Part shown: positions 4,297 through 57,225 of the stretch, piece after piece
Layout: the number at the start of each line of letters is the position of its first letter
Numbering within the stretch: position 1 is the stretch's first letter
DNA from: Rhizaria sp. SCN 62-66
Lineage: Eukaryota
NCBI GenBank assembly: GCA_001724265.1
Contig: MEDY01000127.1
Location: 1-64,000 of the forward strand
Length of the DNA: 64,000 bases
Reading direction: 5' to 3'
Program-made: the position numbers and the translations under genes
The notes under the pieces: generated by a model
Told to the model about the DNA's origin: nothing
The model's input: the letters and a program-made list of their open reading frames with translations, nothing else
The model's database searches: none

Positions 4297-7200
4297 TTAC
4301 GAATCGTTATTGTTGTTGTAAAGATATGGAGAGGCTCCGAGGCGTTGCGTCGCCGCCTCCGTGAGTAAATCAAGCTTAACTTGTGCCGTCCGCTCCACCA
4401 AAGCCAACACACTGCGTTTGTACCAATTCTCGCAGTCAGCATTGACGCAAGCGGCACCGACACCGGCACTCCCACCACTACTGTTCGGGAACAGTGTCTC
4501 CGCAGTAGTTGTTGTCGCCGTCGTGTCAGTCGATGAAGGGTAAAGGAAGCCGTGACCACCAACTGAAGTGAAACCGTTGCGAGCCATGCCCATGGCGCTT
4601 AAATTATCGCATGTTGAGCTAAATGTGCATGTGTTGCATTTGCGTAACGTGGCCTCTAACTCAAGCTGCGCCGAGTTCAATGCAGACGTGACTTCAGTGA
4701 TCACAACGAAGTTACCGCCGCTCCCACAGCTCTCACAAACGTGCGCAACAACAGCAGAACTGTCTCCGCGTTTGGATGTTGCACGGCCACTCGTAAGCAT
4801 GAGACCCCTAGCGCGGGAAGTCTTAAAGACGCCCTAGCTATTGCCGGCAGTGCTGAGACGGACCACGTGAGTTGCGGCGTTGTGCGCAAAAGTTACACCG
4901 CATGTGTAACACTGACGCGGCTTCACCAAGAAACTCAGCGAACCCTGCTGCTCAGTCCCATTCGCAGTACTGCTCAAACCGGTATTGTCCTCAATCGCAG
5001 CAGCGTCTGTCGCGCGAGCATACGCGGCGGCAGCAGCGGCGGCCGCGCCGGTCAACACAGGGGGCGGCGGGCGCGTGCTGTCGGGCGCGGTCCCCAAACT
5101 GCCGTCGCAGCGAGCGGACTGCGGCAGCGGCGACGGCAGCTTCGTGGCCATGACGGCGTCGCACCAGCCCTCAACGTCGGCGGCGGGCAGAAAGCCTTCG
5201 AGGGTGCCGAACGTGCGGTACAGAGGGTCGAGGTGTAACGAGTGGGAGCGCGTGTGGATGTCGCCGAAAGAGCACGGGAAACGACCGAACGCTCCAGGAA
5301 ATGAGCTTGCGATGACACCAACATTAACAGTGTCACTCGTGCTGATGTTACCAGCTTTATTGTTCTCGGTGCTCTTGGAGAATGTATGCTGCGGTAGAAT
5401 CTGAAGACTCGCAGTGACAGGCAAGTTCGAGCCGTGTGAAGGCCCGATCAAGTCAAACACGCGCTTCAATGATGGCACGAGGACTTTGGTGAGATAGTAC
5501 TGTGCGCAGAGTGGCGGCGCCGTGCCAGCTGCAAGCAGCTGCAAGTACCTCTTCGGGGTCATCACTTTATCAACCAGCTTGGCCGCAGACGCGGAACTAA
5601 CGCCACTCAAGCCCGCATCAAACGGTGATTGCACGACGATGTAAGGCACGCGTTGACCGTACAAGGGCAGCGATTGCGGATCCTTACGCGCCTCTCGATA
5701 TGCAACCATGACAGCGGCCGGGGGAGTCGAGCCCGGCTTATACGTGCCCACAGTCACTTCCTTGTTGAACACAAAATCGCCGAGAGGAAGTAAATTAAGA
5801 CGCACGTTGTAAAACACGCTGGAAAGATAGTTGCGGACTGTGGAAAGATTGTTTGTGGTAAACAGTAGTGACACCGCCTCGGACATGGTTTTCTGCAATA
5901 AGGGACACGAGTCGCGGCGAATGATCTCCATGCCTTTACAGTCAATCACACCCTTGGTCTCCGTAGCAGACTCAAACTTGTAGCCGACGTAGCGCTTCTT
6001 TGCAGCGAGAAAACAAGGGTGATACACCTTCTCGTACTCCAAGTGAACCGGAAACGGGCAGTGTGCCGTGACAGTCTCGGACACCTCTTTCGCGAGCCGG
6101 TGCGCCTCCGCGCGGCTGCGGCCCTCAAAAAGCACAAACACCGAGTCGGTGTCGCCGTACACAACGCGGGCGCGCCACGTAGGGTGGCTGTTGACGGTGG
6201 CGATAGCGCGCTCGACTGTGTCGCGTGCGGTCTGCACGATCGCGTCAGCCAACTCCTACACACAAGATTGAAAATTAACACATGAAAGCAAATGTGTCAA
6301 TGCAAGGGGAAAACCGAATAATAAGGTAAAGCCACGACGAGTCATGTGAATATTGTAGAAGTGTGTTTTGTTTTACGTACCTGACAGGGCATACGGCCCG
6401 AGTACCCTGCGGATGTGTACCCATATGTAACGTTGGCAACCAGTTTCAGAGCCGACTGTAGCGCATTATACAGCCGATACCGTTCACGCTGCTGTGGCGT
6501 CGCTGACGGCTTGCTGGAAACGTGAGGTGCCTTCATCGCCGCTTTGACCTCAAACCGTGTCTCCAAGATCTCAGCGAGCATGCGTGGGAGTACGCCTTCG
6601 CGCACTGTAGGCTTGACAAACAGCGCGCCCGTGGACGAAATCCAGAGTGCGCTTTGAGCGTGAAGGGCGCGGATCTCGGCCCAGTTTCGGTCAAGCTCAA
6701 ACCCACCCAGGGGAACGCGGAACGACTGCGGCGGTGTCTCTGGCAGCGATGCGTCGTCTTCAGTGCTCGTGTTTGATTTGTTGCTGCTGGTAGACGTAAA
6801 CATGGCTAAGTCAGCGCCAGATAGCCGACCAAGGCATGTTGAGTAGCACATGTTGTACGCAATCACAATGCTCGGATACAGTGAACGGAAGTCCAACACC
6901 GCAACGGGTGAGGAATAGAATGAAAACGGTTCTGGCTCGAGCGTTAAAGCCTGCGCCTCCATGCCCGGCTGGTCTGCAATCTGCTTCTGCGACATACCCA
7001 CACAGAGGAACTGCAGCGGCCGCGCGACACGCGTAAGCATGGTCTCAACGCGGATCTGACTGCCGCGGTACAAGACATCGTAGAACCGCATTCCGTAGAC
7101 TTTCGCCATCTGCGCGGTGCGGTCGATGAACTCGAGCTTGCTGATAATGTCGAGAGTAACGCGACATTGCTGTGAAAGCCAACGGGCAGCAGCGACAGCG

Positions 7201-10200
7201 CCGCCGCTGATACTCGCAGGGGAGTCTGCAGCTGCACTCGCACTGGAGATGAAGTGACTAGCGGAGCTGCTGCTGTTGCGCGGACAGGAGCTGCCAGTCA
7301 GAGCGAGATTGATCCACCTGGCTAGTTCATGGTGCTCGTGCGTCGGCACAGTAATGCCGAGCACATCGCGCGCAGACGCAGAAAGCGTTGACGAGCTCAT
7401 CTTGATCTCGATGCGCAACAGGCGCCACATGTTGAGGATGATGCGGCCGTCGCAGGAGAGGTCCATGCCCTTCTGAGCCTGGTAACGCTGCCACCCCGCC
7501 ACTGTTGCAGCAGAGGCACGCCCCTGGTTGTTGCCGCTCAAGTCGCCACTAGTAGGAGTGTAGCTGTGAAGCTTCCGTGAGATCACAAGCGCAAATGGAG
7601 GATATTCGGGCACAGCGACGGCAAAGCGGGCACACAGGTAGCCCCAAGAAGCCCGCTGCAGCTCATATCCGATCAGCACATCAGGATCCGTGGTGAGAAT
7701 AAAGTGGCGTAACTCGTGATACAGCGCATCTTCATTTGCAACAACACGAGTCAGTGCGTTGATCTCAGTTGCCCGTGTGTTATTTTTCGCGAATGCGGTG
7801 GTCGACACGGAGCTGTTGCAGTGTTCTGCACTCGTCGTTGCCCCTAAGCCTGTGCCTCTTCGTGTTGATGCTTGCAGCAACGCGTGCGCTGGCGGCGGTG
7901 TGAGGGGAAACCCGAGTCGGCGGAGCGTTGCCTCCTCTGCAGCAGCGCTCAGCGCCGCTGCGCCGGAACCGCCCGCCGCCAATACAGACCGCAAGACATC
8001 GGCTGTGACCGGGCCGGCGCCAGCAACCATCGAGGCAACAGCGTCATGAACGAGGTAGATGACGGTGAGCTCATCAAAACGGTTATCAGCAACATGCGTT
8101 ACCTTAGATGTTGGCGGAGCCTTCGATTTTGATTTGCTCGTTGCCTTAGTAACCTTAGACTCCTTAGTAGCTTTCTCCTTGTTTCCTTGCGTAGTTGATG
8201 GTGCTGCTTCGGGCAACGGCCGCTCACGGCGAATATAAAGGCACACCATCAGCACAGGATCCTTCGCTGGGTCTGCGCATAAGTTAGGCCGTGCCGCAGG
8301 GATAACTTCAAGAGCTAGCAAAGTCATTCCTTGGCCGCCAACAACAGGGCTGCCTTCGCTCGCAGTCGCGATTGAATGATTAGTCGTCTTGACTGGAATG
8401 TTAGAATCTTTGTCATTCGCCTTGCTAGAGACATTATCTGTTACATGCGTGCTCTTTGCGTCTGTTTGATTTTCACGAGCGATTTGCGTTAGCTCATGCT
8501 CACGGTCACGTTGCTCGCAATCGTATTCATCCCACAATAGATCGGACGGTGGCGGCAACTCCACCGGCTCTAGAATGACTGGTAAACCACGGCAAATAGT
8601 CTCGCCCTTCAAGACAGGATGAACAAACTCGTCCCCTGTCGTGGTTGTAAGTGGATATAACGTAAGCGATGCCGCGTCAGCGTCAAGGCGAGCGGCAGTC
8701 GTCGCTGACAAACCCAACGTCGCCGCAGTCACCGGCCGAGAGCGTGTGGTGACACTGCTCAAAGCACCGCCGACTACGTTCGCGAACATCGTTGAGAGGC
8801 TGGGAAAACCGGCGCCGGTGGCGACGGTGAGATCTGATGCAGTCTCCGCTGCGAATGCCATCGTCGACAGCAACACGATATTGTTACCGTCCCTGCTCAT
8901 ACTGCCAGCCGGGGGAGTTGCAATAGCAACGTTAGTCGTCACGGTCGCTGTGGCGGGACGAGGTAACCAGTCAAAATATCGGCGCAACAACGCAGAACTA
9001 TCAAACAATTGCGGTGCTTGTGAAGTGACTGTAAACAGAGGAGGTGAGCGCACAAGAGAAGGTAAACTCAAACTATCAACGGCAAGGACCTCAGAGTACG
9101 GCGTATTCGTCACTTGATGCTCGCTAATAATGTCGGTGTTATTTAACTCTGTGAGTGTGGAAGTACTGAGGGGCGTGTACGCGGGGGCAAAGTACGCTGA
9201 GTGCAACGGCCCCGTAAACCGTAAGCTTAATGTGCGAGCAAACCCGGCTGCAATTGCTGAGGGCGAAGGCGCTAAGACAGGACCGGAACCACCGCCACCG
9301 CGGGCATACGAAAGAGTAGACGCCAAGTCGTGGCCTTGCTCAGAGGTAGTTGATAGGAGAACTGTCGGAGGGGAAAGCAGACTCGTACGAGCAGCAACGG
9401 AGGCGTTTGAATCAGTATAATGAGCAAGAGTATTGAAGCAAGCGCCGGACTTGTCGCTTTGGTTATTGATCTCCATTGTGTGGAGGGTTAAAGGCAACCA
9501 CGAAGCCTGCATGAACGACTGTAACGCAGGGGAAGCAGGTGCGTCATCAGAACTCAAACCAGTAACTAAGCCGGTACCTCGCAGTGCTAAAGCTGTGGCA
9601 GCCGACGTAACATCACTCCCAACTTGACTCTCAATACCAAAGTCGCTTTGACAAGTAACAGTGGGGGCAGCTGCAGCGTCAGCACCAGCTGCGATCGCAA
9701 GATTGATAGTAGCCAACGACAAGTTAAGGCGCCTTCGCGCGCCTGCACTCACTGCACCAGCCGCTGTGGCGGCATTATTTTTCACATTTGCGCTGTTGTG
9801 ATATGAGTGGAACGCAGCGTGAAACGCCGCATCTTGATCGAGTGCTGCAGTCCTCTTCTCAACCCGGTGTGCAACACTTACAGTCGTGTACAGCGGCACA
9901 TGGACTGAGTCAGAGTAGTAGGGTGCTTGAGCAGGGTGCGGCGCCAGCGCAAAGGACAACAGCGACTTCAGGTACATTGAATGCGACGATTTTGCCGAAG
10001 CAGCAGAACCTGAACCAAAGAAGTTGGAAAATGCATGGATAGCGCTTCGTTGCTGCGGCGGAAGCCAGGTTTGCTCGAGGTGAGCAACCGATGGCGCAGG
10101 TGGCAGCATTGCCGTGAGATCGGTAACTGTGATAGGGGAGCCCAACAGAGGTAACGGAAAAGATGACGAAGTGTCTTTCGCAAAGCCATTGTTCTTGTGG

Positions 10201-13200
10201 TGCTTGCGCTTACTCTTGCTCTTCGTTGTGGATTTGCTTCGACTGGCTGTATCGAGTTGCTGGAGTGGAAACCTGCGGTATGGAGATGCAAACATCGCTA
10301 ATGTAGCAGGATAGAGACCGCAAAGAACACCGTCAGGGAGCACACTTAAGGTATCCCTGCGACAGTTTTGATGATTATCGCTGGCATTATCGAAGTCGAG
10401 AAACTGGTTCATGTACATCTGTTCGTCGCGAGTGAGCGATGGAAGACGAAATGATGTGTCAGACTTGCCTTGAAACGCCTCAACTGGAGAAGACGCTACA
10501 ACGGTAGCAACGATACCTGTGTCGTCGGGGGCAGCTGCATGAGTTGCAGCAACAGCGTCCCCGCGCCGATCGTTACCCGTCTTCTCAACTGGTTTGCTGA
10601 CGTCATGTTGTTGAAGTTGAAGTTCGACCTGACGACTGAGAGGCTGCTGCTTTTGTTGTTGGTGTTGCTTGAGTTCAAACTCGGTTATCAAGTGTTCCTT
10701 GCCCTTCAGACGCGACTCTGAAACCCATGCATAGCGAACCTCGGTCGCAGCTGGAAGCGTCAGTGTTTGACGCTCGCAACGAACGCGGAACGTACGCTCG
10801 GTACATGCACCACCTATGTCGTGAATCGTTTGGTTTGCTGATGTGCCCGCAAGATTTAGGTCCGCAAACGTACGCTTCTGTCCTAATCCACCAGAACCAA
10901 TGCTATCACTCTTGTGCTCAACAGTGTCATCGGATGTGGCGGAACGGATGTTCGCCGAAGTCTTCCTAGTGCGCACGTCTACAACCTCAACAACACGAAA
11001 CCGATGTTGTGGTGGTGACCGCGTATACAGCAACTGTTCATGTGACTTTGGAGCGGGTGACTGTGGAGCTGCAGCTTCAATCTCAGCAACATCCTCACTA
11101 CCGCCCCGAGGGCGATTGACAGAGTAGTGGCTCACGTCGAACAAAATGGGCGTAATGGCGGATGTGCGGCGCTCTAAGTAGCCACTCACCTTGTCACTTG
11201 GTGTACGTAGAGTGGTATTGTTATCAGACAACGCTATCGCTGTCGCCGTAGATGGGCTAGCAACTTGACTGCGGGGGAGCTCAGAAGTTTGACTTTGATA
11301 CTCACTATTCTGTGGGGCCGAACTTTGAGAGAGAGCGTTCAACGCCCATGAAATGTGGCGATTGAGCTGATGGGCTTGACGCTGCATACGAGCATCAGTA
11401 CGCGCCTTTTTCGTGCGGCCACGCGACTGCGATAGCTGAGTAAGAAATGTAGAGAAACTGACAGAGTCGTCCGCCTCGTTATCATTGTCACGATCACGGG
11501 TGTTGTTGTCGTTTGCAAAAGTATCGATGCTCGCTTGATCGCTGTCATCATTGTCGCTGCTTATCGTATCATCGCCAATCGTGAGAACTTTGTGTTGCCT
11601 GCATCGATGCTTACCTGTCTTGTTATTGCTGAGAGCAAAGTCACTCTTGGTGAAACCGTTACGTGTGTCAGTATTGTTAGAGTTGCCGCTACTGTCAACC
11701 AATAAGCGATCATCGCCATGAAAGATTTTTTCCTCGCTGTCGACCGCGTGCTCGCTGTCGTGGATGTTCATGTTCTCGCTGTCAGCGTCACAGTCACTCT
11801 GTTCGCGATCGCTCTGGCCACTGTCACTATCATGGGAGGTGCAACTGGTATCACTCTCGGACTCGCTGGAACTCGTCGTGTCGTTACCCGACTCTTTGTG
11901 TGACTGCAGCTCCGACTCCGACTCCGCTTGTGATTGTGATTTCGTGCGATTGACTGTGTGGCAATCATGCATACTAGCTGGCCACTTGTTCTGTTTGGTC
12001 TCTCCGGCGGAAAATGTGACAGCATCTGCTGACGCAGCAGTTGTAATTGCATCGCTATCAATCAACGAACTCGCCAAGACCACCTCTTCGACGAAGTCAA
12101 CCGCACCTTGGCTGCCAGCACCGCTGTCACCAATACCTCGGTTTGGAGTCAATTCAACGGTGCGCGCCTCAGACGCTTGAGAACTCAGCTGGTGTTGTGG
12201 CACTGGAAAGTGGCGAACACGTTTCGTCACAAAGTTCACGTCAGATAACTCGGATTGTTGGGGTTGTGCAAGCGACTGAGCGAGCTGTAACCCTGCTCGT
12301 GACTGCGATTGGGAGACTGACTGAGATGATTGAAGTTGGGGCGTCTGGGCAAAGCGCGGCCGCAGTACGGAGAGAGCGCGCACGAGTAATGGCGTCGCCG
12401 CACTTGTCACCGTCCCTGGTGTTGCGGGTGTGAGAGGCGACCGGGTTGCTGATGCGGCAGCGTCTTTCAGCGGTGTTGCTATCGAAGCTGAAGTTGTTGT
12501 GCGGTGGAGTCGGGTTGGAACTAACGCAGCAAGTTGTGACAACGTCGAAACAGCTGACGGCCATGATTGTTGGCTTAACGAAAAAGTGTCGTCTTTGGGT
12601 TGAGTTGACACAGCACCACTTTCGTGATTCAACACAGCATTATCAGCGGGTTGCCCAACGTTGCGAGTGTTACTCTCATTGCCCAGCAACAGCGGCACCG
12701 GGGGCTTCAAAGTGAAACGGGCCGAGTTCGCTCTCGTGTTGACGTTGCGATTCGCAGTGACCGTGGGTGACCGGAAAATGCTACCGCGGGGGCGAGTCTC
12801 CCCGACAGGACTACGCACACTGCTAACGGCGGTGAAATTCACAATCACGGGGCTTGCATTTGACAGTTGAGGGGAACGCGGGGGCCGAAGCGTGGTTGGA
12901 GAAGAAGCGAATGCAAAAACTTGCGTCGCAGTTACAGTCGCGAGAGAAGCATTGCGGCTTAACGCTCCACTCTCTCTACGAGTAAACTTATGAGCCGATC
13001 CTTGAGCACGGCCATTGACGGCATGGCTAAAGAGAGGAACTTGTGGGACAGACGGCATAGCCGTGATGTGGTTCTCGACAATGGCAGAGCCAGTGCTGCT
13101 CGTGTGTAGCTAAGTGGCTCGAGGTGTTGCAACGACCGAACTATGACTGCGACGGTTTTGAACATTCGACAGAGTGACATCGCTCATGTTTATATGGGGT

Positions 13201-16200
13201 GCGTTAGTATCCGTGTTTGCGTTGTTCTTGTTAAAGCTTGATCTGGCTGACAGCGATAGTGGCTGCGAAAACGTCGCGCCAAGTGCAGAGCCAACCGTGC
13301 CGGGCCACGGTAACACGTCTAAAACACCAACGGGCGCACTCGGCTCCGAAGGCAACGGCAGTTCACTTCGAGCGTTTGTGACCGGAGCAGGACGACTACT
13401 CAGTGTTGTGGTTGCAGGCTTTGAGTGGAGTTCAGCTACACCTACACTGATGGCATTATAATTGATAGCGTCGTGAGGCGCGTTCTTGTTCTTATGTTTA
13501 GTGTAAACGGAGGTGTACATGTTGTTCGTGTTGATCGTGCGATTATGTGGTGATGCAACGAACGATTGCGACGCGCGCAAGAGCACCGACATTGTCGACA
13601 CTGGATCAAGCTCATCCTCTCGTTCCTGCAAATCCTGTGCGGTACTCCGTTCTTGTTTTTGTTCATCATGAATCGTATCCTCCGCTCCAGTTTGCGACAG
13701 ATCAAAATTTAGCTGCCTCTCAACATCATCCCTCCCACTGCTGGCAGCGTTAGAAGTTGTGCCGTTACGTAAAAATGTCAGTTTCTTTGTCACATATCCA
13801 CGAGATCTCGTTCTTGTCATTTCCCGTGCACGCGCCGCCGAAATGAGTGCCCGTTGCTCCTCCTGCAACGCGAGAGTCATGCACGCCTGGTCCAGCTTCT
13901 CCCGATAGAGCCGTTGCGGCAAAGACTCCGGATCCTGTGTGAACACACGTGCCGGTGATGGTGGTAGTGGCGGCAACAGCCGGGGCCGCGCCCGTGGTTG
14001 CCACGAGGAGCTGCTGCGCGCAGTGCTAGAAGAGCTGTAGGCGCTCGACTGACTGAGATCGTTTGCGTGAGTGCGAGCAAACTGCTGAGTGTGAGCGGAG
14101 CTAAGCCTGCCGACAGGCGCACCAGTCTGCGTCCCATCTTGACTTTGACTCTGAGCGGTAGATGCCACATCGCTATCAATGCGTTGATGCAGTGTGTTTG
14201 CGTTGTTCGATGAACCTGCGTTTCCTTCCAGCTCCTCCAGTGCCAACTCAGCGTCGCGGTACAGCTGATCCTGTACATCTTGTAACGACGTGATCATGCG
14301 ACGATTCGATGATGAGAACATCGACAGCAACGAGTTGCTCGGAACTGAACTGTCCGTCTTCTGCGCCAGTTGCTTCTGAACGCATGCTGCGTTGTTGGAG
14401 CCGCAGCTATCGCTGCGCTGAAAACGAGAACCTGTAACGCTCTTGTCTAAGTGGGGCTGTAATGGTGACAGCGGACCGTGCAGCATATTCGCAGCTGACA
14501 AAGACAAGGTCCTCACTTCCGACAGATGATGCTCCACCGCCAAGTGAGTCTGTGTGGGGGTAGAGACCAAGTGACTATGAGCACCATGGGTAAAAGTAAC
14601 AGTCGTCACGCTGCTGTTGCGAGTCATATTCAGTCCGGTAGCAGAGGATGTTGCCGGTGTACCATGGTCAACTCCAACGGTCTGCACTTCGCTCTGCGAA
14701 CGCGTGTTCGCGCGAGCGCTCGATAGATCTTTGCCATTGCGCTTGCGCTGTTGCAAGGAAGTCTACAACAACTCTGGTTTACTCTGGAACGACTGCTGTT
14801 GTTGTTTCAGGCGTGCGTACGGGTCGCCTTGGCTCGGCCACGGCGAAATCCCCTCTCCATCTCCGCTCGTCACGGAGTCACCGCCTGCCAGTGCAATGTA
14901 CGGAGGCGCAGGCACCGCGTGGCTGTCGAGCAAACAGCTCACATCGGTGTCGAGCTCCAGCTCGCACGTGGTGCGTTTGCGCACAGTGTTCACGTACGTT
15001 CCACCTGGTCCGACGTATGCGCCGCCGCGTTGGCCGCTAGCGCCCTTGGAAGTTGTCGTTTGCGGGTGCATGGCAGTGAGCGGCACATTGTCAGCAAGCC
15101 ATATCATCATCTTATTCCTCTGGTGCTTCGCATACGGAGCAGTCGCATCACAGTTAAGCAAACCATAATCGACGTGATTATTGACGTTATTGATGGTGTT
15201 GCTCTTCGTGTAAATGGTGTTGTTTTTGGTGTGAGATTGTGGATGAAATTGAGGCTGTGGCTCATCGCTCCACGGCGTTGGCTTGGGTATAAGAACTGCT
15301 GACAGCGTCAGCACCTTGATCAACTTTGCCAACTCAACATCAGCCGCATGGCTACGGCTGGAATCAGTCGACAGGGCGTTGTTGCACCTGCTATTCAAGG
15401 TCAATAAAACCATCTTGTTACTTGCCGTTGTGTCAGCATTGTTGCCGTTGCTGTTGGCGTTACTGGCGCTAGTACTAGGCGTATGAGGAGATACTACTTG
15501 CTTATTTTTGTGGCGAGAGTAAATCGAAGGCTTGCTCACAGTCGCCAGGCTCATAGTGACAGAAGTTTCAGATTTAGTGTCATTGTGCAGAGTGACTTTG
15601 CTATCAGCGCCAGCATCGTTGTTGTCGTCGTCATCGTTGATATCGTAGTGATCAGAAACAATACCAACACGCGCATTCACACTCACTGATAAAGCATTGC
15701 TAGCGCGTGCGCTTCTGGAGCTGTGGAGACGGATCGGCAGCGAAAGCCGCTTCAGGCCGGCGACCACTCGCTGCAAAACAGCGTTGACACTCACGCCAAC
15801 GGTCCCGAGCGAAGTTCCCTGCAAGAACCGGGCAGTTAATACAGTCTCCACGTCTGCGCCAGTACTGCTTACGGCCACCGCGCGCGCCGCCTAGACCCAG
15901 GAATCGGTAGTGCCCACGGTCCTGCTGCGGCGACACGGCAGCGGCCAGCGGAACCGGAACCCGCCCGCTCGGACCCTTACATCGCCCATGCCCCTTAAAT
16001 TGTTGTCGACAAGGAAGTGCAGCGAGTAGGGGAAGTTCGACTCGTACGGCTGGTAAACGCGCCCGAACACGCCGCCGCAAAGCAGCACGCTCGCCGCGGC
16101 AGCGACTGTGGCGGGGGCTGTCAGTAGGATTTTTAGGAACCGGCGCGGACGCGAGTGGTAGCCGAAGAACCTGTGAGCACGGATGACTTCAATGTTGTAC

Positions 16201-21064: not shown

Positions 21065-21100
<36 letters not shown>

Positions 21101-22549: not shown

Positions 22550-22581
<32 letters not shown>

Positions 22582-47044: not shown

Positions 47045-48787
47045 ATGCGGCTCAGCTTTACCATCAGCAACGTGCAGCTCTTCCTGCGTTTCTTGCTCGC
47101 CGCGAGTGTGTACACGGACACGGCGCTGCTCGAGGTGGCTCCGCACCGCATGCGCGTGCATGCCGGTGACGACCCCGCCACGAAGCGCAACACACACCTT
47201 TTCCTCGACTTCGCGCTCCCGCCCGCCGCCATCCGCGGCGCCGCGCCGCTGCCGCCCGCCGAGGCCAACCACCCGTCTGTCTTCTCGGCCTTCTCGTGCG
47301 ACCCTGGCGCGGACGCCACGTCGCTGACGATCGAGCTGCCGTCATTGATGCCGCTCATCACCACGCTCGCCGAGGCCGCCAAGTCGGGCGCCGCCGTTGA
47401 CGCCAGCCTCATGCGCGACCCCCGCACGCTGATCATCTGTCTCAGGCTTAACTACTACCCGCCGGACGCAGGCACCGGCTCCCATCCCGCCGCCGGTGCC
47501 GCGTCGATGACTGTGAGCGGCACGGGTTCCGTCCCCGCGCTCATCATTAAGCAGGCCATCATCGAGCGCCGCCACTGGCCGCTCGTCTTGTGCGACTCCC
47601 CGCGTCCACTCATCGTCATCCTAGAGGATTTCCAGGCCGTGCTCAACGCGTTTGACGCCATTGCGAAGTTAGGCCGCACCGTGACGCTGACTGCGGACAC
47701 TGCGACAGGGAACCTCTACGCTAAGGCGAGCCTCACGACTGCAGCTACCGCTGGCAGCGGCGGCGGCGGCGGCGGCAGCGGCAGCTATACCAGCAGTTTC
47801 AATCGCGCCGACCGCAATGATGACGACGACGCCAACGACACGGGCGGCTCGAAACGCCACTTCTCCGGCGCTGCTGCTGCCGGCGATGCTGTTGGTGCGG
47901 AGAGCGGAGAGGTTGTGCTGACGATTGGTAACGCCAACCCTCTGGTGACGGCGCGCTACATGCTCAACTTCATCGATAAGCTGTCGCACTTGTCGGTGGG
48001 CCAGTCTGCTGCGAAGCAGGCAAGGCTCGCGAGGTATTTGCGCGCGAAGCGGCTCCGTAAGCAGCAGCAACAAGAGCAAGAGCAACAACAGCAGCAGCAA
48101 AGCAACGCTGCGAGCGCAAATAGCTCCAGTTCAAGCAGTTCTAGCTCTAGCTCTAGCGCAAGCACAAACGCGAGTGCTAGTGCGAGTGTCGAGGCAGCTC
48201 CTGGTGCTGCGGCAATGAAGACGGACCCTTATGCGGCCAATAGCAACAACAATGTCAATGACAATAGCAGCGCGAATGCGAGTGGGTTGACGCCGACAGG
48301 TACTGCTGCTGCCCCCGCCAACGCCGCCAACAGCAACAACAGCGCTGACACGACGAGTGCGAGTGTGAAGGCGAAACAAAGTGCTGAAAAGGACCGCAGT
48401 GACGGCAAGTCTAACGCCGACGACCACAAGTCAAACACCGGCGCAACTAACCCTCGCGCTGACAACGCGAGTGCGAATACTAGTGCGAGCGCGAATCATG
48501 ACGGCGACAGCGACAGCGAGTGCGCGAGCGACCTCGACGACAATCCCGACGAGGACGAGGACGACCCCGGCGCGCAGTACAAGGACTGCACGCTCATCGT
48601 CCCCCCGCGCACGGCGAGTGTGACGTTAGATAGCGCGATGATGGGCGCTCTATGCGGGTTGCGGCGCACCAAGAGCGATCAGGCGTGGCTTATTCTCGCC
48701 GGGAATGTCGTCGTGTGCTATGTGTCGGCGTCGGACGGTGCAGATCTGCTTGTGTACTTGCCTGCGGTTGCCACTGCGGACATGTGA
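47045..48787 (+). CDS. HUS1: Checkpoint clamp (9-1-1) subunit HUS1-like (580 aa, with large low-complexity insert)
   Basis: MRLSFTI...TALLEVAPHRMRV, IIERRHWP..PRPLIVIL...AIAKLGRTVTLTADTATGNLYAK, and C-terminal ASVTLD...LLVYLPAV match the layout of Hus1/Mec3 proteins; ends TGA. Confidence 0.72.
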   Translation: MRLSFTISNVQLFLRFLLAASVYTDTALLEVAPHRMRVHAGDDPATKRNTHLFLDFALPPAAIRGAAPLPPAEANHPSVFSAFSCDPGADATSLTIELPSLMPLITTLAEAAKSGAAVDASLMRDPRTLIICLRLNYYPPDAGTGSHPAAGAASMTVSGTGSVPALIIKQAIIERRHWPLVLCDSPRPLIVILEDFQAVLNAFDAIAKLGRTVTLTADTATGNLYAKASLTTAATAGSGGGGGGSGSYTSSFNRADRNDDDDANDTGGSKRHFSGAAAAGDAVGAESGEVVLTIGNANPLVTARYMLNFIDKLSHLSVGQSAAKQARLARYLRAKRLRKQQQQEQEQQQQQQSNAASANSSSSSSSSSSSSASTNASASASVEAAPGAAAMKTDPYAANSNNNVNDNSSANASGLTPTGTAAAPANAANSNNSADTTSASVKAKQSAEKDRSDGKSNADDHKSNTGATNPRADNASANTSASANHDGDSDSECASDLDDNPDEDEDDPGAQYKDCTLIVPPRTASVTLDSAMMGALCGLRRTKSDQAWLILAGNVVVCYVSASDGADLLVYLPAVATADM

Positions 48788-49323: not shown

Positions 49324-52300
49324 ATGGCCACGCATCGGTTGACTCGGGTTTTCGCCCGTATTCAGCGCGCATGCAACGCCGCAGTCCTTCCCTTTTCTCC
49401 TGCGTCTGCTCTTGCTCCTGCACATGCAGTTGCATCGACATCGACTTGTAACACACCGAGTGCTGCTACTTCTTCTTCTCCTCACGCATCACCGGCACCG
49501 AGCGCTGGTGTTGTGTGCGATGTTGCGACTGCGCGCGCAATCTTTCTCGCTGCTCTTCGCACCTCGCTTTCTCGCAGCGAACACGTTTCTCAAGCAACAT
49601 TCAACAGTACAAGCAGTGCTGCTAACGCGGCTGCTGTGATGATTGCTGGCACTAGCGCGGGCGCATTTGCAACATCTATGTTCAAGCCTAGCCATGCTGT
49701 GCTCGCCCAGTCTAAGAAGCACCAGAACAAACACAGCAACAGCAACAGCAACAGCAACAACAATAGCAACGGAAACGACTCTGATAGCAAGTCGACTCTC
49801 AACAGCGCTGCTGATGGCCAGCCGACCGCTGCCGCGAATGCCAGCGCCGCCGAGCCTCCCAGCAAGCGCGCGTCTCTGGCCACTTCTGCCCGGTCGCTCT
49901 TCTCCCGCATCCAGTCCGCCGCCAACACCATGAACGAAGCCAACCCCAAGAACCCTAAGAACAGCAGCAACAACAAGAGCATGGCCAGCGCTAGCTCCTC
50001 CCCTGCCGGCGCGCCTTTCGCCGACCTGCGCGAATATAAGCCGCTGTCCCCGCATCCGAACGCGGGCGCGGGCGCGGGGTCGCGGTCCGCCCACGCCCGC
50101 CACCAGCAGTTCCAGCAACAGCAGCAGGCCAAGGCGGAGGCGGCGAACCCGGTGGTGCCGATGCCCAAGATGGGCTTCCCGGTCATCGGGCTCGTGCTGC
50201 TGGTGCTGGTGCCGGTGTTGCTGGCCGCCGCGCAGAGCCCTCGCGCGCAGGCGCAGTCGCCGGAGAGCTACGACAAGACGTACGGCAGCAAGGACTCGAG
50301 CAGTGAGAATGCTGTTAATGCGAGTGCGAGTGGGGGCAGCGTATATTAGGCGAACCGTCTTCCGAATAACGACGATCACACCGCGAAAGTCCCTTCAGCA
50401 AGCGCCAACAACAGTAAGAGTGTCGTATCCGTTGTCGAGAGCTCAACAACAACAACAACAACGATCACGACGACGACGACAGTGTCCGACACTGCGACGG
50501 GGGAGACCGGTGATCTCAACAGCGGCAGCAGCAGTGACCATGAGCAGCAGCTTAGAGCGCCCCTGCACCGGACTGCCCTCAGCACATAGGCAACTAGACT
50601 CCCATTAAACTCCCACAATAACAACACTGCCAGCGATGAGGTACGTACAGTGAAGGCGCGTGCGCTGTCGCTCGCCTACTTAGCCTGTGTCGCTGCCCCC
50701 ATGAAGCTGTTGGCGGCCACGGCGCGGTCGCTGCGCTTTACGATCCTCTTGATCCGCTTCCTGCCTCTCTTGGCGCTCGTCGCTGTCTGCTACGCGATTC
50801 CGCCCCCTCTTTACGACCAGTCGCACAGCGGCGCTGCGAACGAGGGCGAGCGGCGACCTAACTTTTACGAGCGGCTAACTTTATTCACCAACACGGCGCT
50901 CACGCGCGCGCTGGCCCGCAGCGGCCCCGCGTTCGTGAAGCTCGCGCAGTACGCATCGACGCGGCCCGACGTGTTGCCACACGCGCTGTGCACGCAGCTG
51001 GGCGCGCTGCAGGACGACACGGAGCCGCACTCGTGGGCCGAGAGCGAGAAAGCGCTGGTGAGAGCGCTCGGGGAGGACTGGGAGGATGTGCTTTGTATCA
51101 GCGAGCATGATAAGCTCAAACCGGTCGGATCTGGGTGTATTGCGCAGGTCTATATGGGCAAGATGCGTTCTCCTGACAAGAAAGCGACCAAAAGCAGCAT
51201 TATGACGTACAGTGCTCACCAGAACGCTGCTCACAGTCATACCTGCTCTGCTCACGGTCACTTCGCGTCGGCCGATGCGGATAGGTTTGACTGGGATGAC
51301 GTTGCGATCAAAATCATCCACCCGTCGGCACAATGGGTTCTCTCCCGTGACCTGGCCATTGTGCGCACTATCGCACGTCTTGCATGCTATATCCCGCCGC
51401 TGCGGGATTTTTTTGCACTGATGCCGCCCTTGCAGCTCGTGCACGAGTTCGAGCTGCTGATGTAGTGCCAGCTTGATTTGCGGCACGAGGCCGAGAACAT
51501 CAACATGATGCGGCTTAATTTCGGGCTTGATACCCCGCAGTCACTGCAACTCCGCAGCAAGGGGTACATCACCAGCAACAGTAGTAGTGGTCTCCGCAAT
51601 AGTGTTAATGCTCCTCCTAAGTCCCGCTCCTCGTCGCTGACTGCTTCTGCAGCCTCTACAGCTCACGGTCATCAGAGCGGGCAACAGGCACCTTCGCCCG
51701 AGGCTGGCTATGTGTTCAGCCCCGTGCGCGCCATCGTACAACACCCGTCGTCTCCGTTCAGCATCGAGTTCCCTTCTGTCTACACGGCCACGCCCAGTGT
51801 GTTGGTGGAGCGGTTTCACTGGGGACTGCCGGCGTCGCACCTCATCGCGTCCACGCTGAGTGACCGTGAGCTGGAAGAGCACGCGACGGACTATGAGCAA
51901 CAGAAGCTCGGTTTGAACAGTGGCAGTGGCAATATTAGTGGCAGCGACGCGAATAAGAAGATCGATGCCAGCAGGGCGCAGGAAGTTAAGCCGCCGTCGA
52001 CAACGTCGTTGCAACACCTGCTGTTGCGTAACATGACGGTACAACAGCGCGAGACCGTTGCGAAAGAGGTTGCTGCCACCGGTCTCAACGCGTTTCTGCT
52101 GATGCTATTCCGCCACGGGTATTTCCACGCTGACTTGCACCCCGGCAACATCATCATCGATCTCGGATATGACTGGCCACCACCTTGCACGGTCACTGTG
52201 CGTAACAGCAGCGAAACCCACAGTCAGTGCAGCGAATGCGCCCACAGCAGCCGCCCCGCTGCCACCCGTGGCGCTCACAGGCACTACGACACGGCGACGG

Positions 52301-53508
52301 TGACGTCTGCGACTGAAAGCGACATTAGCAGTTGTCTCGACGCGTTGGCTACGGTGCATGTGTCAGACGACGCAGCTGCTGCCAGCGCAAAGCAAGCGAA
52401 CCAAGAGCAGCTACACTACGTCAACACCATTCTTCACAGCAACAACACGGTCACAGACTTTCGCAGTAGCAACGGCAACAACGATACTGCAATTGATAAC
52501 GTGAGTGTTCGCCCTGTGGCTACTGCAATCAAGGCATCTGTGTCATCTGTGCTGTCATCTCTCTCACAGACAGTTGCTGCGGCACTCTGTGAGAACAGCG
52601 TTTACAGGCAGTTCTACAACAGCATGGCTTGCAACGCGCCGTCGCTCACCCTCAAGCTCGGCCTGCCTACGCCGACCTCGACCTCAAACAACGATGACAC
52701 GCCTGCGGACACCAGCGGCGGCTTAACTTCGACCACGGTTGATGCTCTCGTCTTCGAGCCAGCGTTGCCGTTCGCCCCGTTGACAATGTTCCCATCCACC
52801 GTGTTCCAAGCCTTACACCCAAACGACTCGCGCTTACACGAGGCCTTTGCCGCCGACCACCCCTTAGCGTACCAGGCGTGGTACTTAGCCCACGGTCTCC
52901 CGCTGCCCCCGCGCCAGCCGCGGCTCATTCTCATCGACGCCGGCATGACAACCCCTCTGCTCGACAGCGAAATGGTCAACTTCCGCGACTTGTTCTATGC
53001 TGTTGCGCTGGGCAGGGGCAAGGAGGCCGCGGAGATGATGGTCGACCGCGCCCCCACGCGGCCTAACTTACCGCCACGGAGCCCGGAGTCGCGACAGCAG
53101 TTTGTCGACACGGTCTCGGCGTTGATCGACAAGGCCGCCAGCGCGGGGTTCAAGCTCTCCTCCCTCGGCGTGGTCGAGACGCTGCAGGGCCTTGTCACCG
53201 CTGCCAGGACGCACCTCGTGCCGCTGGATCCGGCGTTTCTCTCTGTCATCGTCGCTGTGACGGTGACCGAAGGCGTCGGCCGCTCGCTCGACCCCAACGT
53301 CGACATCGTGACGCCGGCGATCACTGTCGTGGCCAAAGCGAGGATTGATGAGCTGTTGGCGCAGCAGACGTGCAACTTAAGCCGCCTGAAGAGGCTTGGC
53401 GGCATGGCGGGATATAACACGAGCACTGTCGAGGGCGCTCTTGCAGAGACCGCGGCGGACGCCACTGTGGGGGTTGAATCTCCCGCAGCTGAGAAGAAGA
53501 CTGAGTGA
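49324..53508 (+). CDS. ABC1/UbiB-family atypical kinase (ADCK2-like, ~1394 aa) with three in-frame TAG codons (50347, 50587, 51463)
   Basis: SGPAFVKLAQYASTRPDVLP, LGALQD, PVGSGCIAQVY, VAIKIIHP, EFELLM*CQLDLRHEAEN, FLLMLFRHGYFHADLHPGNI, LILIDAGM, EGVGRSLDP. Presequence-like basic N-terminus; ends TGA. Confidence 0.9.
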
Positions 53509-53652: not shown

Positions 53653-56600
53653 TCAAATCCTCTGCTGCTACTGCTGCTGTACCTTTTGCTGTTGGCGCTT
53701 CTTGTCTTCCTCAACGATTGCAGCCCACTTGGCCAGCCTCGCCGCCTCCGCAGCAGCCTCTGCCGCTTGCTTCGTGCCCTGCCCATGCTTGGTGACTGCT
53801 GCCGCTGCCGCCGCCGCCGCTGTTGCAGCAGCTGTGGCAGCTGGCGCAGTACCGCGTGTTGAAGAAGAGCCTCTGACGCTGGTGCTGCTGCTGATGTTGC
53901 GTCCAACAATTTCATCATCATCGCTCACGTCAATCTGTTGTGTCGGATCAAAGTCAAGCCGCATATTGACATTTACCTTATTTCTCGGCACACGAGTCTG
54001 CGCGTTGTTGTTGTGACTCGACTGGGACTGTGTCAGCGACTGAGTCTGAGACTGCGGCGACTGCCCGTGCGACAGCGCATGCAGCGCCTGCGCCCTGGCC
54101 GCCGCCCCCGCCGCCGCAGCAGCGGCCCCCTTGGCGCTGGCTTCCGTCGCGGCCGCCGCCGAGGGGCGCACGGCGGGCCTCGCGGTGCCGTCATTGCCCG
54201 AACCGACCTTGAACGGTGCCGTCGCGTGGCGGTTGCTCGTCCCGCAGCCGCAGTGCACGCCGAGAGTCGTGTGCGTGAGGTGAGCGGTGCAGTCGCGCGT
54301 ATGAGTCACAGCGTCCGTGCCGTCGTTATGTGGAGACGCATCATCAGGAGTTTGCATCGGACCCTCGGCATCATCACAGGAGTTGTGAACGTGCTTGGCG
54401 TTGTGCGTGGATGTGGGTGAGCTAGGGTTCACATTCGGAACGAAGCCGGCTTGACTTGCGATATACTGCTGCCGCTTCAACCGCGCTTCAGCCTCCGCAA
54501 GCGTTTGCCTCAGCATCACTTGCCTTCCTGTCTCACCAGTGTGCGCACCGACAAACGCACCGCGCGCCCGCGCCCGCGACGGCGACGACAGAGCGAGCGC
54601 GGACGGCGCCGCAGCGGGCGCGGCGGCCTCGGTGGCGGCGGCCGGAAGCGGCACAGGGCCGTTGCTGTTCGTGCAGTTGGTCGCAACGACAACAGTGTTG
54701 CTTTTGTTCTCATTGCTGGTGCTTTGCGTGACGTGGAAAGGCGGCGTTTGAAGCGGAATTGTGCGCGTTGTCGCAAGACGATCGCGCAAAGTTAAACCGC
54801 AATTATTGTTGTTCACGGAAGCAACAAGCGCAGCGGCTTCAGTGGACAAGCCAGCTGATGAGCCATTGTTGCACGAGTTGCGGTGCAGGAGAGATGCCAG
54901 CAAAGCGTCGTCGTCCTCCTTGCTGTATTCATCATGGCTGCCGCTATAACCATCAGAGCTCGGATCATAGTCGTCGACCGCGTCAGCGTCATGCATCCTG
55001 TTGCCCGCGTTCGCATTGTTCGCATTAGCATCACTCTGCGACTGCGACTGTGCGAGCACATGCGAGTGCGATTGTGAGTTTGCACCTTGTTGCTGCTGAT
55101 GCTGTTGCTGTTGCTGTTGCTGGAGCGAAAGTAGCGAATGGGGCGTATGCGTGAAACTGACAATTAACCCACCATGCACCAGCACAGTCCCGACATTGGC
55201 TACACCAGCCACCACAACCCCAGGCGCAGTCTGCTGCCGTTGCCGCTGCTGGTTCTGGTTCAGATTCGACATGATGAGCTTCCTGGTTAGCCTCGCAACT
55301 GTAATCGCTTGGCTCGACTCGACGCTCGGCGTTACTTGCGACGGACCCCGGATCACGCGCACAGGCGCATCGCCGGGCGCGGCTTGACTTAAATCATACT
55401 AGCTGCACTGCTGCTGCTGGTGATGGGGGTTGCGCACGAGAGGAAACTTAGCGCGGGGGTACTTGCACGTGACAGCAGGCGCGGTGTTCACATTCGATGT
55501 CGCGCTTCGAGAGCTCTCACCACCGGGGTTCTGCTGCTGATGATCGAGATCATCGTGATCGCTATCGTGTGCGTTCTCACCTCGGTCAAGCGGCCCACGC
55601 CAGAGCAGGCCCTGTCGGGCATCAGCGCTGGCCTGCGCTAAATCGCCCCACCACTGACCCTCGGTGCTGTTCTCGGTCTTCGCCACCGTCTCGGCGGCGT
55701 ACAAATCCTATCCGCTACTGTTGCCTTGAAGAGGGTTCACAAAGTATCCGCCAGTGCTAGCGCTGCTGTTGCCAACACGGTGTGATTTGGTGCGCTTGAT
55801 CAGCGCGGGCTCCGGCCTCGCCCGCGGCACCTTGGCCGGCATCGGCTTGGCCGTTGCTCCCGCCAGGTCCGGCCCGTACACCGCCGACATCGCAGTCGCG
55901 GGCCCTGGCCCCAGAGACGACTCCGCGAGCGGATGGCTCGCCCAGTCGATCGGGAACACCACCGACGCCGCGGGGACCGTGCCGGCACTCGCGGACACCG
56001 GCGGCATCGCAAGCCCCTCCGCAGACACGTGGGATTGGGAGCCAGGAAACGTGTGAGTCATCGGTACCGGTGCCGTGCGTTCTAGAACAGCCTCGCGCGC
56101 CATGGCGGCGACGCGTGCGCCCGCGATTTGCCTGCGGTTGCGGCCTGTGGCAGCCACCCGCACGCCGAGGCTCAGCGCCTGCGCGCCTTTGCCGGCCGCG
56201 GCCGGGCTGCTGAGGCTGCTGGCCGCGGCGATGAGATGACGCGTGTTGGCGCGCGCCGTCATCGATAGCGACGAGGCGTGGTTGCTGAGCGCGGCGCCGG
56301 AGCAGTCGCTCGCGACGGCCGGGTTGCTGTAGCTGCGGACGTCGTTCGCGCGAGTGCCCGCGCCGCGGCTCGTCTGGGCGCGTGCAATACAGGCGGCCGT
56401 TTTGTGATTGTGATTGTCGTTGTTGTTGATGTTCGAGTTGGGGTTTGCTGCGAGTGCGCCGTGGTTGGGGACAGCGGCGGCAGTGGCGACACCGCATCCT
56501 ACGCCGACGCCGGCAGCGGCGGCCCTGTCCAGCAGCGGAGCAATGTCCCTGCGGAGACGCAGGATGCGGCTCTCTTGCACTTGCCGCAGACCGGCCGCGA

Positions 56601-57225
56601 CCGACTGCGCGGGCATCACGTACGGCGACTGCGACTGAGACGGAGACAGAGCGGAACGAGGCGTTGATTTGATGTGCGAGGCGGGCGAGTGAAAGTACCC
56701 TGAGCCGTCCAAGTACCCTTGCTGGTACGCAGTCGCTGTCGCAGTCATACTGTTGGCGTTGACGTTGGAGTTGGAGTTGGCGTGTTGGGGGACAGGAAGC
56801 GGGATGCCAAGTCGGTCATGAGCCCACTGCGGCATCGCGGCGGCGATGGAGCCGGGCGGCAGCAGGACCATTGACTGCTGGGTGCGGAATAGCGCGTCAT
56901 TGTCGTCAGCGCTATCACCTACGGATAGAGATGATGAAGGGTACTCGTCGTTGATGAAGCGAACGGTCGATGCGTTGGCACTCGAAGTCGGGTAACCGGC
57001 AGAAGCAGCACTGCCAGCGGCCGGGGCGAGGGCAGGACCGTAAGCCCGCGGCCTATAAGGCGATGAAGATACGTTAGACGGTAGAATCATCGACCCCGTA
57101 GAGCGAAGAGCCGATGGCATAGTGACGCTATGCGCGGAGGTGTGGGGAGCTGAGGCCATCGCAGCAGGTCCAGACGCGAAGGCCATGCCGCTCGGTCGCG
57201 AGCGAGCACTGTCGCTAGATGACAT
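53653..57225 (-). CDS. Uncharacterised low-complexity protein (~1190 aa) with three in-frame TAG codons (55708, 55399, 53668)
   Basis: Three consecutive ORF-track pieces are in one frame separated only by TAG; the last TAG lies inside a CAG run and is followed by QQRI and TGA at 53655-53653. Confidence 0.68.

What the first reader, a model, noticed from the sequence alone, without database searches (positions are those of the whole stretch)
4297..57225. Non-standard nuclear genetic code: UAG is a sense codon (probably Gln) while UAA and UGA remain stops
Seen in sequence: 12 in-frame stops interrupt five genes (REV3 at 15891, 14763, 13110, 4834; ORC2 at 36071; unknown at 46103; ABC1 kinase at 50347, 50587, 51463; unknown at 55708, 55399, 53668). 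All 12 are TAG, none shifts the frame, and none lies in anything resembling this genome's T-rich GTACG...AG introns. The 15 complete gene models end in TAA (9) or TGA (6). Ten of these genes have no internal TAG, so their ends do not depend on the recoding assumption. Established knowledge: UAA and UAG are nearly always reassigned together in nuclear codes; UAG-only reassignment is known from few lineages (UAG=Gln in the fornicate Iotanema, UAG=Leu in an uncultured rhizarian, some ciliates). Inference: this organism may be a further independent case; I cannot identify it from this window.
Basis: partly seen in the sequence, partly recalled or inferred. Interest (0 to 1): 0.95.

Follow-up and report, generated by a model that had tools for sequence, protein, structure and literature searches.

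The report
UAG read as sense codon

Summary
In 16,026 codons from 10 large genes there are 12 in-frame TAG, 0 TAA and 0 TGA. A codon model trained only on TAG-free genes shows coding continuing in the same frame on both sides of 11 of the 12. At 13 of 14 TAA/TGA gene ends the score turns negative and GC falls. TAGs separate conserved parts of REV3 and cut the ABC1 kinase domain. A 48%-identical environmental relative reads straight through the ABC1 site. Listed contigs from other runs carry 5 of the 8 laid TAGs unchanged, and one poly-A RNA contig carries one TAG unspliced and unedited. No gene ends in TAG, except perhaps at 53668, which lies 4 codons before a TGA. So UAG is a rare sense codon here (0.75 per 1000 codons) and UAA and UGA are stops. 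The amino acid is not determined: Gln is favoured only by precedent, and four tests were uninformative. The organism is unplaced, with no relative above about 49% identity in REV3. This kind of code is known from Iotanema, a rhizarian and some ciliates, so this looks like a new member, probably an independent one.

The parts
4297..17231 (-). REV3 (DNA polymerase zeta catalytic subunit). Exon 1 is 17231-6381, the intron is 6380-6256 (GTACGT...TAG, 125 nt), and exon 2 is 6255-4297, ending in TAA. In-frame TAGs at 15891, 14763, 13110 and 4834.
   Evidence: Pfam hits: REV3_N and POL3_N before the first three TAGs, exonuclease and DNA_pol_B after them, and zf-C4pol after TAG 4834. The intron was read. 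TAGs confirmed.
31682..37600 (-). ORC2, ending in TAA, with an in-frame TAG at 36071.
   Evidence: RecA-like_ORC2 E=4e-32 and WHD_ORC2 lie downstream of the TAG. The coding score is positive on both sides of the TAG.
42620..46537 (-). Low-complexity protein of unknown family, ending in TAA, with an in-frame TAG at 46103 next to a Gln run.
   Evidence: An X4 contig spanning 45923-47010 keeps the TAG and has one change, at 46102.
49324..53508 (+). ABC1/ADCK atypical kinase, ending in TGA, with in-frame TAGs at 50347, 50587 and 51463. The last one is inside the kinase domain.
   Evidence: Pfam ABC1 E=2.9e-22. Public gene calls split at TAG 51463 into P0181 and P0179. Relative P0180 reads through with Arg. 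An X6 poly-A RNA contig spanning 50063-50435 carries TAG 50347 with 0 differences.
53653..57225 (-). Protein of unknown family, ending in TGA at 53653. Internal TAGs at 55708 and 55399. TAG 53668 sits in a CAG run 4 codons before the TGA and could be sense or the true terminator.
17977..25929 (-). PH-domain protein of about 2650 aa with no TAG, ending in TAA 7 residues after the PH domain. Used as a control gene.
47045..48787 (+). Hus1-like checkpoint clamp with no TAG, ending in TGA.
   Evidence: Atlas feature score 0.92 to Hus1/Rad1 clusters (a lead only).
38258..39982 (+). Rad1-like gene, multi-exon, ending in TAA. Intron 39311-39520 (GTACGT...TATAG) is spliced out in a cDNA contig.
   Evidence: Exons. 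X8 record 26 joins 39310 to 39521. Splice sites read. The Rad1-like label comes only from reading the translated exons; no search was run on this gene.
62551..63227 (+). Centrin-like EF-hand gene with intron 62672-62856 (GTACGT..CTAAC..TAG), ending in TGA.
60373..62319 (+). RS-rich RRM protein with no TAG, ending in TGA directly after its C-terminal domain.
4..171 (-). 5' part of a ribosomal protein eS26 gene with no in-frame TAG.
   Evidence: Translation. The family was recognised by eye and not searched.

Best explanation
The window is nuclear DNA of an uncultured, fast-evolving eukaryote that occurs in wastewater and bioreactor metagenomes. Its cytoplasmic translation reads UAG as an amino acid and terminates at UAA and UGA. 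UAG is a rare codon (12 in 16,026 codons, in 5 of about 15 genes) and sits mostly in poorly conserved, low-complexity stretches.

Shown: the TAGs are real, in frame, flanked by coding sequence, inside genes whose conserved domains lie on both sides, and at least one is present in RNA.

Inferred, not shown: a tRNA with anticodon CUA decodes UAG, and eRF1 has lost UAG recognition while keeping UAA and UGA.

The amino acid is undetermined. My estimate is Gln about 0.5, Leu about 0.2, others about 0.3, resting mainly on precedent.
For: 1. All 12 TAGs were confirmed. In-frame counts are TAG 12, TAA 0, TGA 0 in 16,026 codons.

2. A codon model trained only on the 5 TAG-free genes finds frame 0 best and positive in the 50 codons before and after 11 of 12 TAGs. 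The same score is negative after 13 of 14 TAA/TGA terminal stops, and GC falls to 0.29-0.51 there.

3. Domain continuity: REV3_N and POL3_N lie upstream, and the exonuclease, polymerase and C4 zinc finger lie downstream of TAGs in one frame. TAG 51463 lies inside the ABC1 domain.

4. Relative P0180 (48% identity over 873 columns) aligns without a break across TAG 51463, with conserved flanks.

5. These are not assembly errors. Listed contigs of X4 carry TAGs 46103, 50347, 50587 and 51463, and X2 carries 53668, which is 5 of the 8 TAGs laid. The TAG-split products P0181 and P0179 are recorded on 4 and 6 contigs.

6. RNA: a poly-A metatranscriptome contig from X6 spans TAG 50347 with no difference and no joint. 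X8 holds a correctly spliced contig of a neighbouring gene, so mRNA of this organism is in these libraries.

7. 0 of 14 gene ends use TAG, although TAG makes up 23% of stop-like triplets in non-coding sequence. TAA is preferred 8:6 despite GC of about 0.58.

8. Under a random-nonsense-mutation null, TAG would be 58-61% of new stops, so P(12 of 12 being TAG) is 1.5-2.9e-3. There are no frameshifts.
Against: Only 64 kb and 12 codons were available, and no whole genome is held. So no tRNA(CUA), eRF1 or rRNA could be examined; the window has no tRNA.

RNA support covers 1 of the 8 laid sites, comes from assembled contigs rather than raw reads, and the tool warns that DNA can be present in RNA libraries.

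Three laid sites (36071, 55399, 55708) were not covered by any listed contig.

TAG 53668 could be a genuine terminator, which would make UAG dual-use.

Most TAGs lie in unconserved regions, where truncation or leaky readthrough is harder to exclude by homology.

The amino acid is unresolved:
- The +-4-neighbour model ranked Q 8th of 20, behind R, H, L and E.
- The hydrophobic-context model ranked Q first, but only 1 lnL above L.
- The one conserved-domain column is variable, and the nearest relative has Arg there.
Confidence: 0.88

Rival explanations
1. Context-dependent (dual) UAG: read as an amino acid inside genes but still able to terminate near the 3' end, as in ambiguous codes.
For: TAG 53668 lies 4 codons before TGA, with non-coding sequence downstream (score -44.8). 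UAG is rare, as expected if termination still competes.
Against: Only this one case exists. 14 of 14 other gene ends use TAA or TGA. A sense TAG followed by 4 codons and TGA explains the site equally well.
Confidence: 0.1
2. The TAGs are removed or changed before translation, either by in-frame introns or by U-to-C RNA editing to CAG, so the code is standard.
For: RNA evidence covers only 1 of 8 laid sites. The three introns whose ends were read finish in TAG. Site 14763 has the weakest upstream coding score (1.2) and GC 0.47.
Against: The X6 RNA contig keeps TAG 50347 unchanged and unspliced. Sequence around the TAGs is exon-like in GC, T content and codon score. No GTA[CA]GT-type donor on the gene's strand pairs with an acceptor around a TAG. 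At 51463 the flanks align residue for residue with P0180, leaving no room for an intron.
Confidence: 0.03
3. Pseudogenes or a decaying genome region that is accumulating nonsense mutations.
For: C-to-T changes in abundant CAG codons make TAG the commonest new stop, with an expected share of 0.58-0.61.
Against: P(12 of 12 being TAG) is 1.5-2.9e-3. There are no frameshifts in 16,026 codons. Codon bias is intact after each TAG. Core replication and repair genes are affected (ORC2, REV3). The sequence is identical in several assemblies.
Confidence: 0.02
4. Sequencing or assembly error in the source assembly.
For: None found.
Against: Contigs from X4 and X2, which are different samples and studies, carry 5 of the 8 laid TAGs unchanged. 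The TAG-split proteins recur on 4 to 6 contigs.
Confidence: 0.01

Closest known systems
Iotanema spirale (Fornicata): UAG=Gln, with UAA and UGA as stops (PMC5304391, abstract and section 7 read)
   Same: UAG is the only reassigned stop, no gene ends in UAG, UAA is the commonest terminator, and it is not a ciliate.
   Different: Iotanema has 204 in-frame UAG in 126 genes, many at hyperconserved Gln positions. Here there are 12 in 16,026 codons, almost all in unconserved regions, and the amino acid is unknown. An ABC1/ADCK kinase suggests to me (inference) an aerobic-type organelle, unlike fornicates. Affiliation was not testable.
Rhizarian exLh (Sainouroidea): UAG=Leu (PMC5304391, section 6 read)
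   Same: UAG-only reassignment, with UAA (56) and UGA (15) as terminators, in a non-ciliate.
   Different: exLh has 384 UAG in 71 genes, concentrated at conserved Leu. Here UAG is about 1% of what Leu codons would be. The only conserved-domain site has Arg in the nearest relative, and Leu appears in 19 of 139 homologues.
[quoted passage not shown]
   Same: UAG is decoupled from UAA, and UAA is kept as the preferred stop.
   Different: In those species 78-91% of genes hold internal UAG, and UAG makes up 18.5-31.8% of Gln codons or 6.5-10% of Leu codons. Here about a third of genes hold one, and UAG would be 1.8% of Gln codons. This window has GC 0.58 and is a multi-gene contig with 125-210 nt introns. 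That does not look ciliate-like to me; ciliate genome features are recalled, not tested.
UAR=Gln codes (NCBI table 6 type), for example Amoeboaphelidium protococcarum (cited in PMC5304391, passage read)
   Same: A stop-to-sense change involving UAG. The best named ABC1 relative is Amoeboaphelidium occidentale, but at only 39% identity.
   Different: TAA is never in frame here (0 of 16,026) and ends 8 genes.

Membership tests
UAG-only sense-codon nuclear code (UAG sense; UAA and UGA stops; formally NCBI table 15 if Gln) | In-frame UAG inside conserved protein-coding genes, with coding continuing in the same frame | tested here: met
   12 TAGs in 5 genes. Domains lie on both sides. The codon score is positive on both sides at 11 of 12 sites. 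P0180 aligns across 51463.
UAG-only sense-codon nuclear code (UAG sense; UAA and UGA stops; formally NCBI table 15 if Gln) | UAA and UGA never in frame, and used as terminators | tested here: met
   0 TAA and 0 TGA in 16,026 codons. 14 of 14 ends are TAA or TGA, and coding score and GC collapse after 13 of them.
UAG-only sense-codon nuclear code (UAG sense; UAA and UGA stops; formally NCBI table 15 if Gln) | UAG not used as a terminator | tested here: inconclusive
   0 of 14 modelled ends use TAG, but TAG 53668 lies 4 codons before TGA and could terminate. Only about 15 genes were available.
UAG-only sense-codon nuclear code (UAG sense; UAA and UGA stops; formally NCBI table 15 if Gln) | UAG present in mature mRNA (not spliced out, not edited) | tested here: inconclusive
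   Met for 1 of 8 laid sites: X6 poly-A RNA contig 50063-50435 has 0 differences. The data are contigs, not raw reads.
UAG-only sense-codon nuclear code (UAG sense; UAA and UGA stops; formally NCBI table 15 if Gln) | Cognate tRNA with anticodon CUA, and eRF1 that no longer recognises UAG | not testable with these tools
   No tRNA in the window, no genome held, and no further loci found.
UAG=Gln specifically | UAG falls at positions conserved as Gln in homologues | tested here: inconclusive
   Only one site is alignable: Arg in P0180, and Q in 9 of 139 homologues. The REV3 sites are not covered by homologue alignments: 1 of 120 and 0 of 120. Context tests were uninformative.
UAG=Leu (rhizarian exLh type) | UAG frequent and at conserved Leu positions | tested here: inconclusive
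   The frequency part is not met: 0.75 per 1000 codons, against 384 in 71 genes in exLh (PMC5304391). For the Leu part, L is found in 19 of 139 homologues at the one alignable site, which neither supports nor excludes Leu.
UAR=Gln code (table 6 type) | UAA also read as sense | tested here: not met
   0 in-frame TAA, and 8 genes end in TAA with non-coding sequence after it.
Ambiguous stop/sense codes (Condylostoma or Blastocrithidia type) | All three stop codons occur in frame and termination is context-dependent | tested here: not met
   Only TAG occurs in frame. Dual use of TAG alone is left open by site 53668.

The most novel reading that the evidence does not exclude
An independent UAG-only reassignment in a eukaryotic lineage with no sequenced close relative, caught at an early stage of codon capture. 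UAG is already unreadable as a stop but still very rare (0.75 per 1000 codons) and confined to unconstrained protein regions. Its amino-acid meaning is not yet known and need not be Gln or Leu.
Probability: 0.5. Interest if true: 0.85.

Novelty: new member of a known kind. Interest (0 to 1): 0.75.

Why it matters
UAA and UAG nearly always change meaning together. Per the papers read, only two non-ciliate lineages and a few ciliate lineages are known to split them. A further case would add an independent data point on how eRF1 and a CUA-anticodon tRNA can separate the two codons. This one is GC-rich, not ciliate-like, and uses UAG very sparingly, which may show what the first steps of codon capture look like.

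There is also a practical consequence. Public gene callers already cut this organism's proteins at TAG (P0181 and P0179), so its proteome is mis-annotated in the databases.

Tried and rejected
**Access to more of the organism**
- The whole genome is not held.
- The search for related loci found nothing in four scans: the ABC1 region in metagenome contigs, genome contigs and viral contigs, and P0180 in metagenome contigs. No second locus, tRNA, eRF1 or rRNA of this organism or its relative could be read.
- Rfam found nothing in the window.

**Amino-acid identity**
- The +-4-neighbour likelihood ranked R, H, L and E on top and Q 8th. Its calibration reused training sites, so it is optimistic.
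- 2 of 12 TAG sites have an adjacent Gln, against 0.337 of Gln sites and 0.03-0.10 of other residues. That is intermediate and has no power.
- In the hydrophobic-neighbourhood likelihood, Q was best but L was only 1.0 lnL lower.
- REV3 homologue alignments covered the TAG sites in 1 of 120 and 0 of 120 cases.
- The N-terminal ABC1 TAGs did not align to any of 14 relatives.

**Placing the organism**
- REV3 hits reach 41-49% identity to plants, green algae, fungi, oomycetes and Mastigella alike.
- In a REV3 tree of 43 rows (quick method) the window lies on a branch of about 3 changes per column, outside all named groups, with a long-branch warning.
- Only 3 of 10 looked-up ABC1 neighbours had names: Amoeboaphelidium occidentale, Salpingoeca urceolata, and a JGI function label.
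- The atlas search only identified the 47045-48784 gene as Hus1-like.

**Read laying**
- Parts of the laid stretch had no listed cover, at 36071, 55399 and 55708. This says nothing either way.
- The many joints and loose ends lie at GCC/CAG-type repeats and short sides, so I did not use them.

**Literature**
- Two searches for a wastewater or MAG eukaryote with reassigned UAG found nothing relevant.
- Supplementary files were not consulted.

**Unused tools**
- One homologous-protein search was left unused, because I judged the chance of an alignable relative at a TAG site to be too low.
Full report
**The observation**

With standard stops the region breaks into adjacent same-frame ORFs. With TAG read as sense they fuse into long frames (translations):
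- 6342-17273(-), 3643 aa
- 4297-6372(-), 691 aa
- 31682-37675(-), 1997 aa
- 42620-46642(-), 1340 aa
- 49207-53508(+), 1433 aa
- 53653-57237(-), 1194 aa

**The genes**

Pfam identifies REV3: REV3_N, POL3_N, exonuclease, DNA_pol_B, and a weak C4 zinc finger. It also identifies ORC2 and an ABC1/ADCK kinase. Other hits are a PH-domain giant protein, an RRM protein, a thioredoxin-domain protein and a centrin-like EF-hand protein. An atlas search points to a Hus1-like clamp at 47045-48784 (a lead only). From reading the translated exons I also see a Rad1-like gene, an MsrB-like gene and the start of eS26. These last three labels rest on recognition by eye, not on a search.

Three introns were delimited:
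- 6380-6256 in REV3
- 62672-62856 in the centrin gene
- 39311-39520 in the Rad1-like gene

All three start with GTACGT and end in TAG. The third is removed exactly in a cDNA contig of run X8, where record 26 joins 39310 to 39521. So this is eukaryotic nuclear DNA with spliceosomal introns.

**Is it more than chance?**

In 16,026 codons of 11 ORF pieces from 10 large genes, in-frame counts are TAG 12, TAA 0, TGA 0. The two other frames of the same sequence hold 240 TAA, 204 TAG and 673 TGA. After 11 of the TAGs the frame stays free of TAA and TGA for 178 to 3182 codons. At the off-frame rate of 0.0285 per codon, that has chance probabilities of 10^-2.2 to 10^-39.9.

I trained a codon log-odds model only on the five TAG-free genes, so it does not depend on the recoding assumption. 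It scores frame 0 as positive and best in the 50 codons before and after 11 of 12 TAGs. As a control, I applied the same score after 14 TAA/TGA gene ends. It is negative at 13 of them (-12 to -39), and GC falls to 0.29-0.51. The exception is the thioredoxin gene, at +3.7 with GC 0.34. So TAA and TGA mark real ends of coding sequence and TAG does not.

**Site 53668**

This TAG lies in a CAG run, followed by CAG CAG AGG ATT TGA and then non-coding sequence. It may be a sense codon near the end, or that gene's true terminator. I count 11 secure internal TAGs.

**Homology across the TAGs**

Three REV3 TAGs lie between the N-terminal domains and the exonuclease/polymerase domains in one frame. The fourth lies upstream of the C4 zinc finger. 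TAG 51463 lies inside the ABC1 domain.

An exhaustive HMMER search found that public gene calls for this very sequence stop at that TAG (P0181, query 1-232) and restart after it (P0179, query 247-913). It also found one environmental relative, P0180. BLASTP gives 48% identity over 873 columns, and P0180 aligns without a break across the site: EFELLM[TAG]CQLDLRHEA against EFELMMRCQLDLRHEA.

**Are the TAGs real, and are they in RNA?**

The stretch is held by ten runs in six studies, mostly from bioreactor, wastewater and activated-sludge sources. One of them may be the source. I laid 36000-55999, which holds eight of the TAGs, against four runs.
- Listed contigs of X4 cover TAGs 46103, 50347, 50587 and 51463. 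X2 covers 53668. None shows a change at the codon. X4 has a G-to-C change at 46102, in the neighbouring codon.
- Sites 36071, 55399 and 55708 are not covered by any listed piece.
- A contig of the poly-A metatranscriptome X6 (50063-50435) spans TAG 50347 with 0 differences and no joint.

These are assembled contigs, and DNA carry-over cannot be excluded. RNA support is therefore real but thin. P0179 and P0181 are on record on 6 and 4 contigs, the longest 172,059 bases.

**Rivals**

- Random nonsense mutation would give TAG in 58-61% of cases with this codon usage. So 12 of 12 being TAG has P of 1.5-2.9e-3. There are no frameshifts, and codon bias persists after each TAG.
- Introns or editing are contradicted at 50347 by RNA and at 51463 by residue-for-residue alignment. 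The TAG neighbourhoods have exon-like GC (0.44-0.70) and T content (0.11-0.23), against 0.35-0.39 T in the two introns scored.
- Dual use of UAG stays open because of 53668.

**Terminators**

I count TAA 8 and TGA 6 in 14 models. TAG is 23% of stop-like triplets in 8,825 non-coding bases. Zero of 14 is therefore mildly improbable (about 0.03 by my arithmetic). The preference for TAA in a GC-rich genome matches what is reported for other UAG-reassigned lineages (PMC5304391 sections 6 and 7; PMC11687900 section 10).

**Which amino acid?**

This is not determined. Only one TAG is in an alignable conserved region. P0180 has Arg there, and 139 homologues give R22 K21 L19 I11 N10 T9 Q9 E8 and others. 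The REV3 sites fall outside the homologue alignments. Three context statistics had no discriminating power. One of them ranked Gln 8th and another ranked it 1st. Two TAGs touch Gln runs (46103, 53668), which fits a CAG-to-TAG origin but proves nothing. Gln remains the favourite only by precedent. If it is Gln, the code equals NCBI table 15.

**Which organism?**

It is unplaced. REV3's most conserved 300 residues reach only 41-49% identity to plants, green algae, fungi, oomycetes and Mastigella alike. In a 43-row REV3 tree the window sits on a branch of about 3 changes per column, outside every named group, with a long-branch warning. Named ABC1 neighbours are an aphelid and a choanoflagellate at about 40% identity. 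No further locus could be fetched.

**Comparison with what is known**

UAG-only reassignment is documented in:
- Iotanema spirale (Gln) and the rhizarian exLh (Leu) (PMC5304391)
- Phyllopharyngean ciliates (Leu once, Gln twice; PMC11687900)
- Oligohymenophorea sp. PL0344, which has UAA=Lys and UAG=Glu. I saw only the search listing and abstract start of PMC10553269; the amino acids are recalled.

The present case shares the pattern of UAG as sense, UAA and UGA as stops, and UAA preferred. It differs in how rare UAG is: 0.75 per 1000 codons, about a third of genes, and 1.8% of Gln codons if it is Gln. Iotanema has 204 in 126 genes, exLh has 384 in 71 genes, and the ciliates have 18.5-31.8% of Gln codons. 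It also differs in that UAG is almost absent from conserved positions. TAA is clearly a stop, so this is not the UAR=Gln code of Amoeboaphelidium.

**Verdict**

It is a new member of a known kind of code variant. It is probably an independent origin, but that needs the rest of the genome.

Noticed in passing
window 4297-48787: Four DNA replication, repair or checkpoint genes lie within about 45 kb: REV3, ORC2, a Rad1-like clamp subunit and a Hus1-like clamp subunit. This may be chance. The Rad1-like label is by eye and the Hus1-like label comes from the atlas only.
   Followed up: partly
window, all large genes: The proteins are greatly expanded by low-complexity runs of Ala, Ser, Asn, Thr and Gln. 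REV3 is about 4270 aa over two exons, and ORC2 is about 1970 aa with its domain only in the last 230 residues. Asn runs are encoded by AAC in a GC-rich genome.
   Followed up: partly
6256-6380(-), 39311-39520(+), 62672-62856(+): All three delimited introns begin with GTACGT and end with TAG. Two show a CTAAC/CTGAC-like branch motif. Introns are few, and most large genes appear to have none or one.
   Followed up: partly
window 40669-41335, 48006-48672, 45338-46671, 54009-54675: Summed contig depth is very high in all four runs (up to 172). It coincides with GCC/GCT/CAG-type repeats, and many loose ends read CGCCGCC... This looks like cross-mapping from other organisms rather than copy number.
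   Followed up: no
window 46102: A G-to-C difference in run X4, directly beside TAG 46103. It changes the following CAG (Gln) codon to GAG (Glu) on the coding strand, and the TAG itself is unchanged.
   Followed up: partly
ABC1 relatives P0004, P0182, P0183 and their cluster members: Environmental ABC1 proteins of 1068-1562 aa at 36-44% identity, also with long insertions, come from JGI, Logan and ENA metagenomes on contigs up to 186 kb and 333 kb. This suggests a wider, unsampled group around this organism.
   Followed up: no
window 27053-28165: The 1332-aa ORF at 27053-31051 has its first ATG only at codon 371, yet looks coding from its start. A short exon with an ATG at about 26770-26910, followed by GTACGT at 26911, is the probable first exon.
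   Followed up: no
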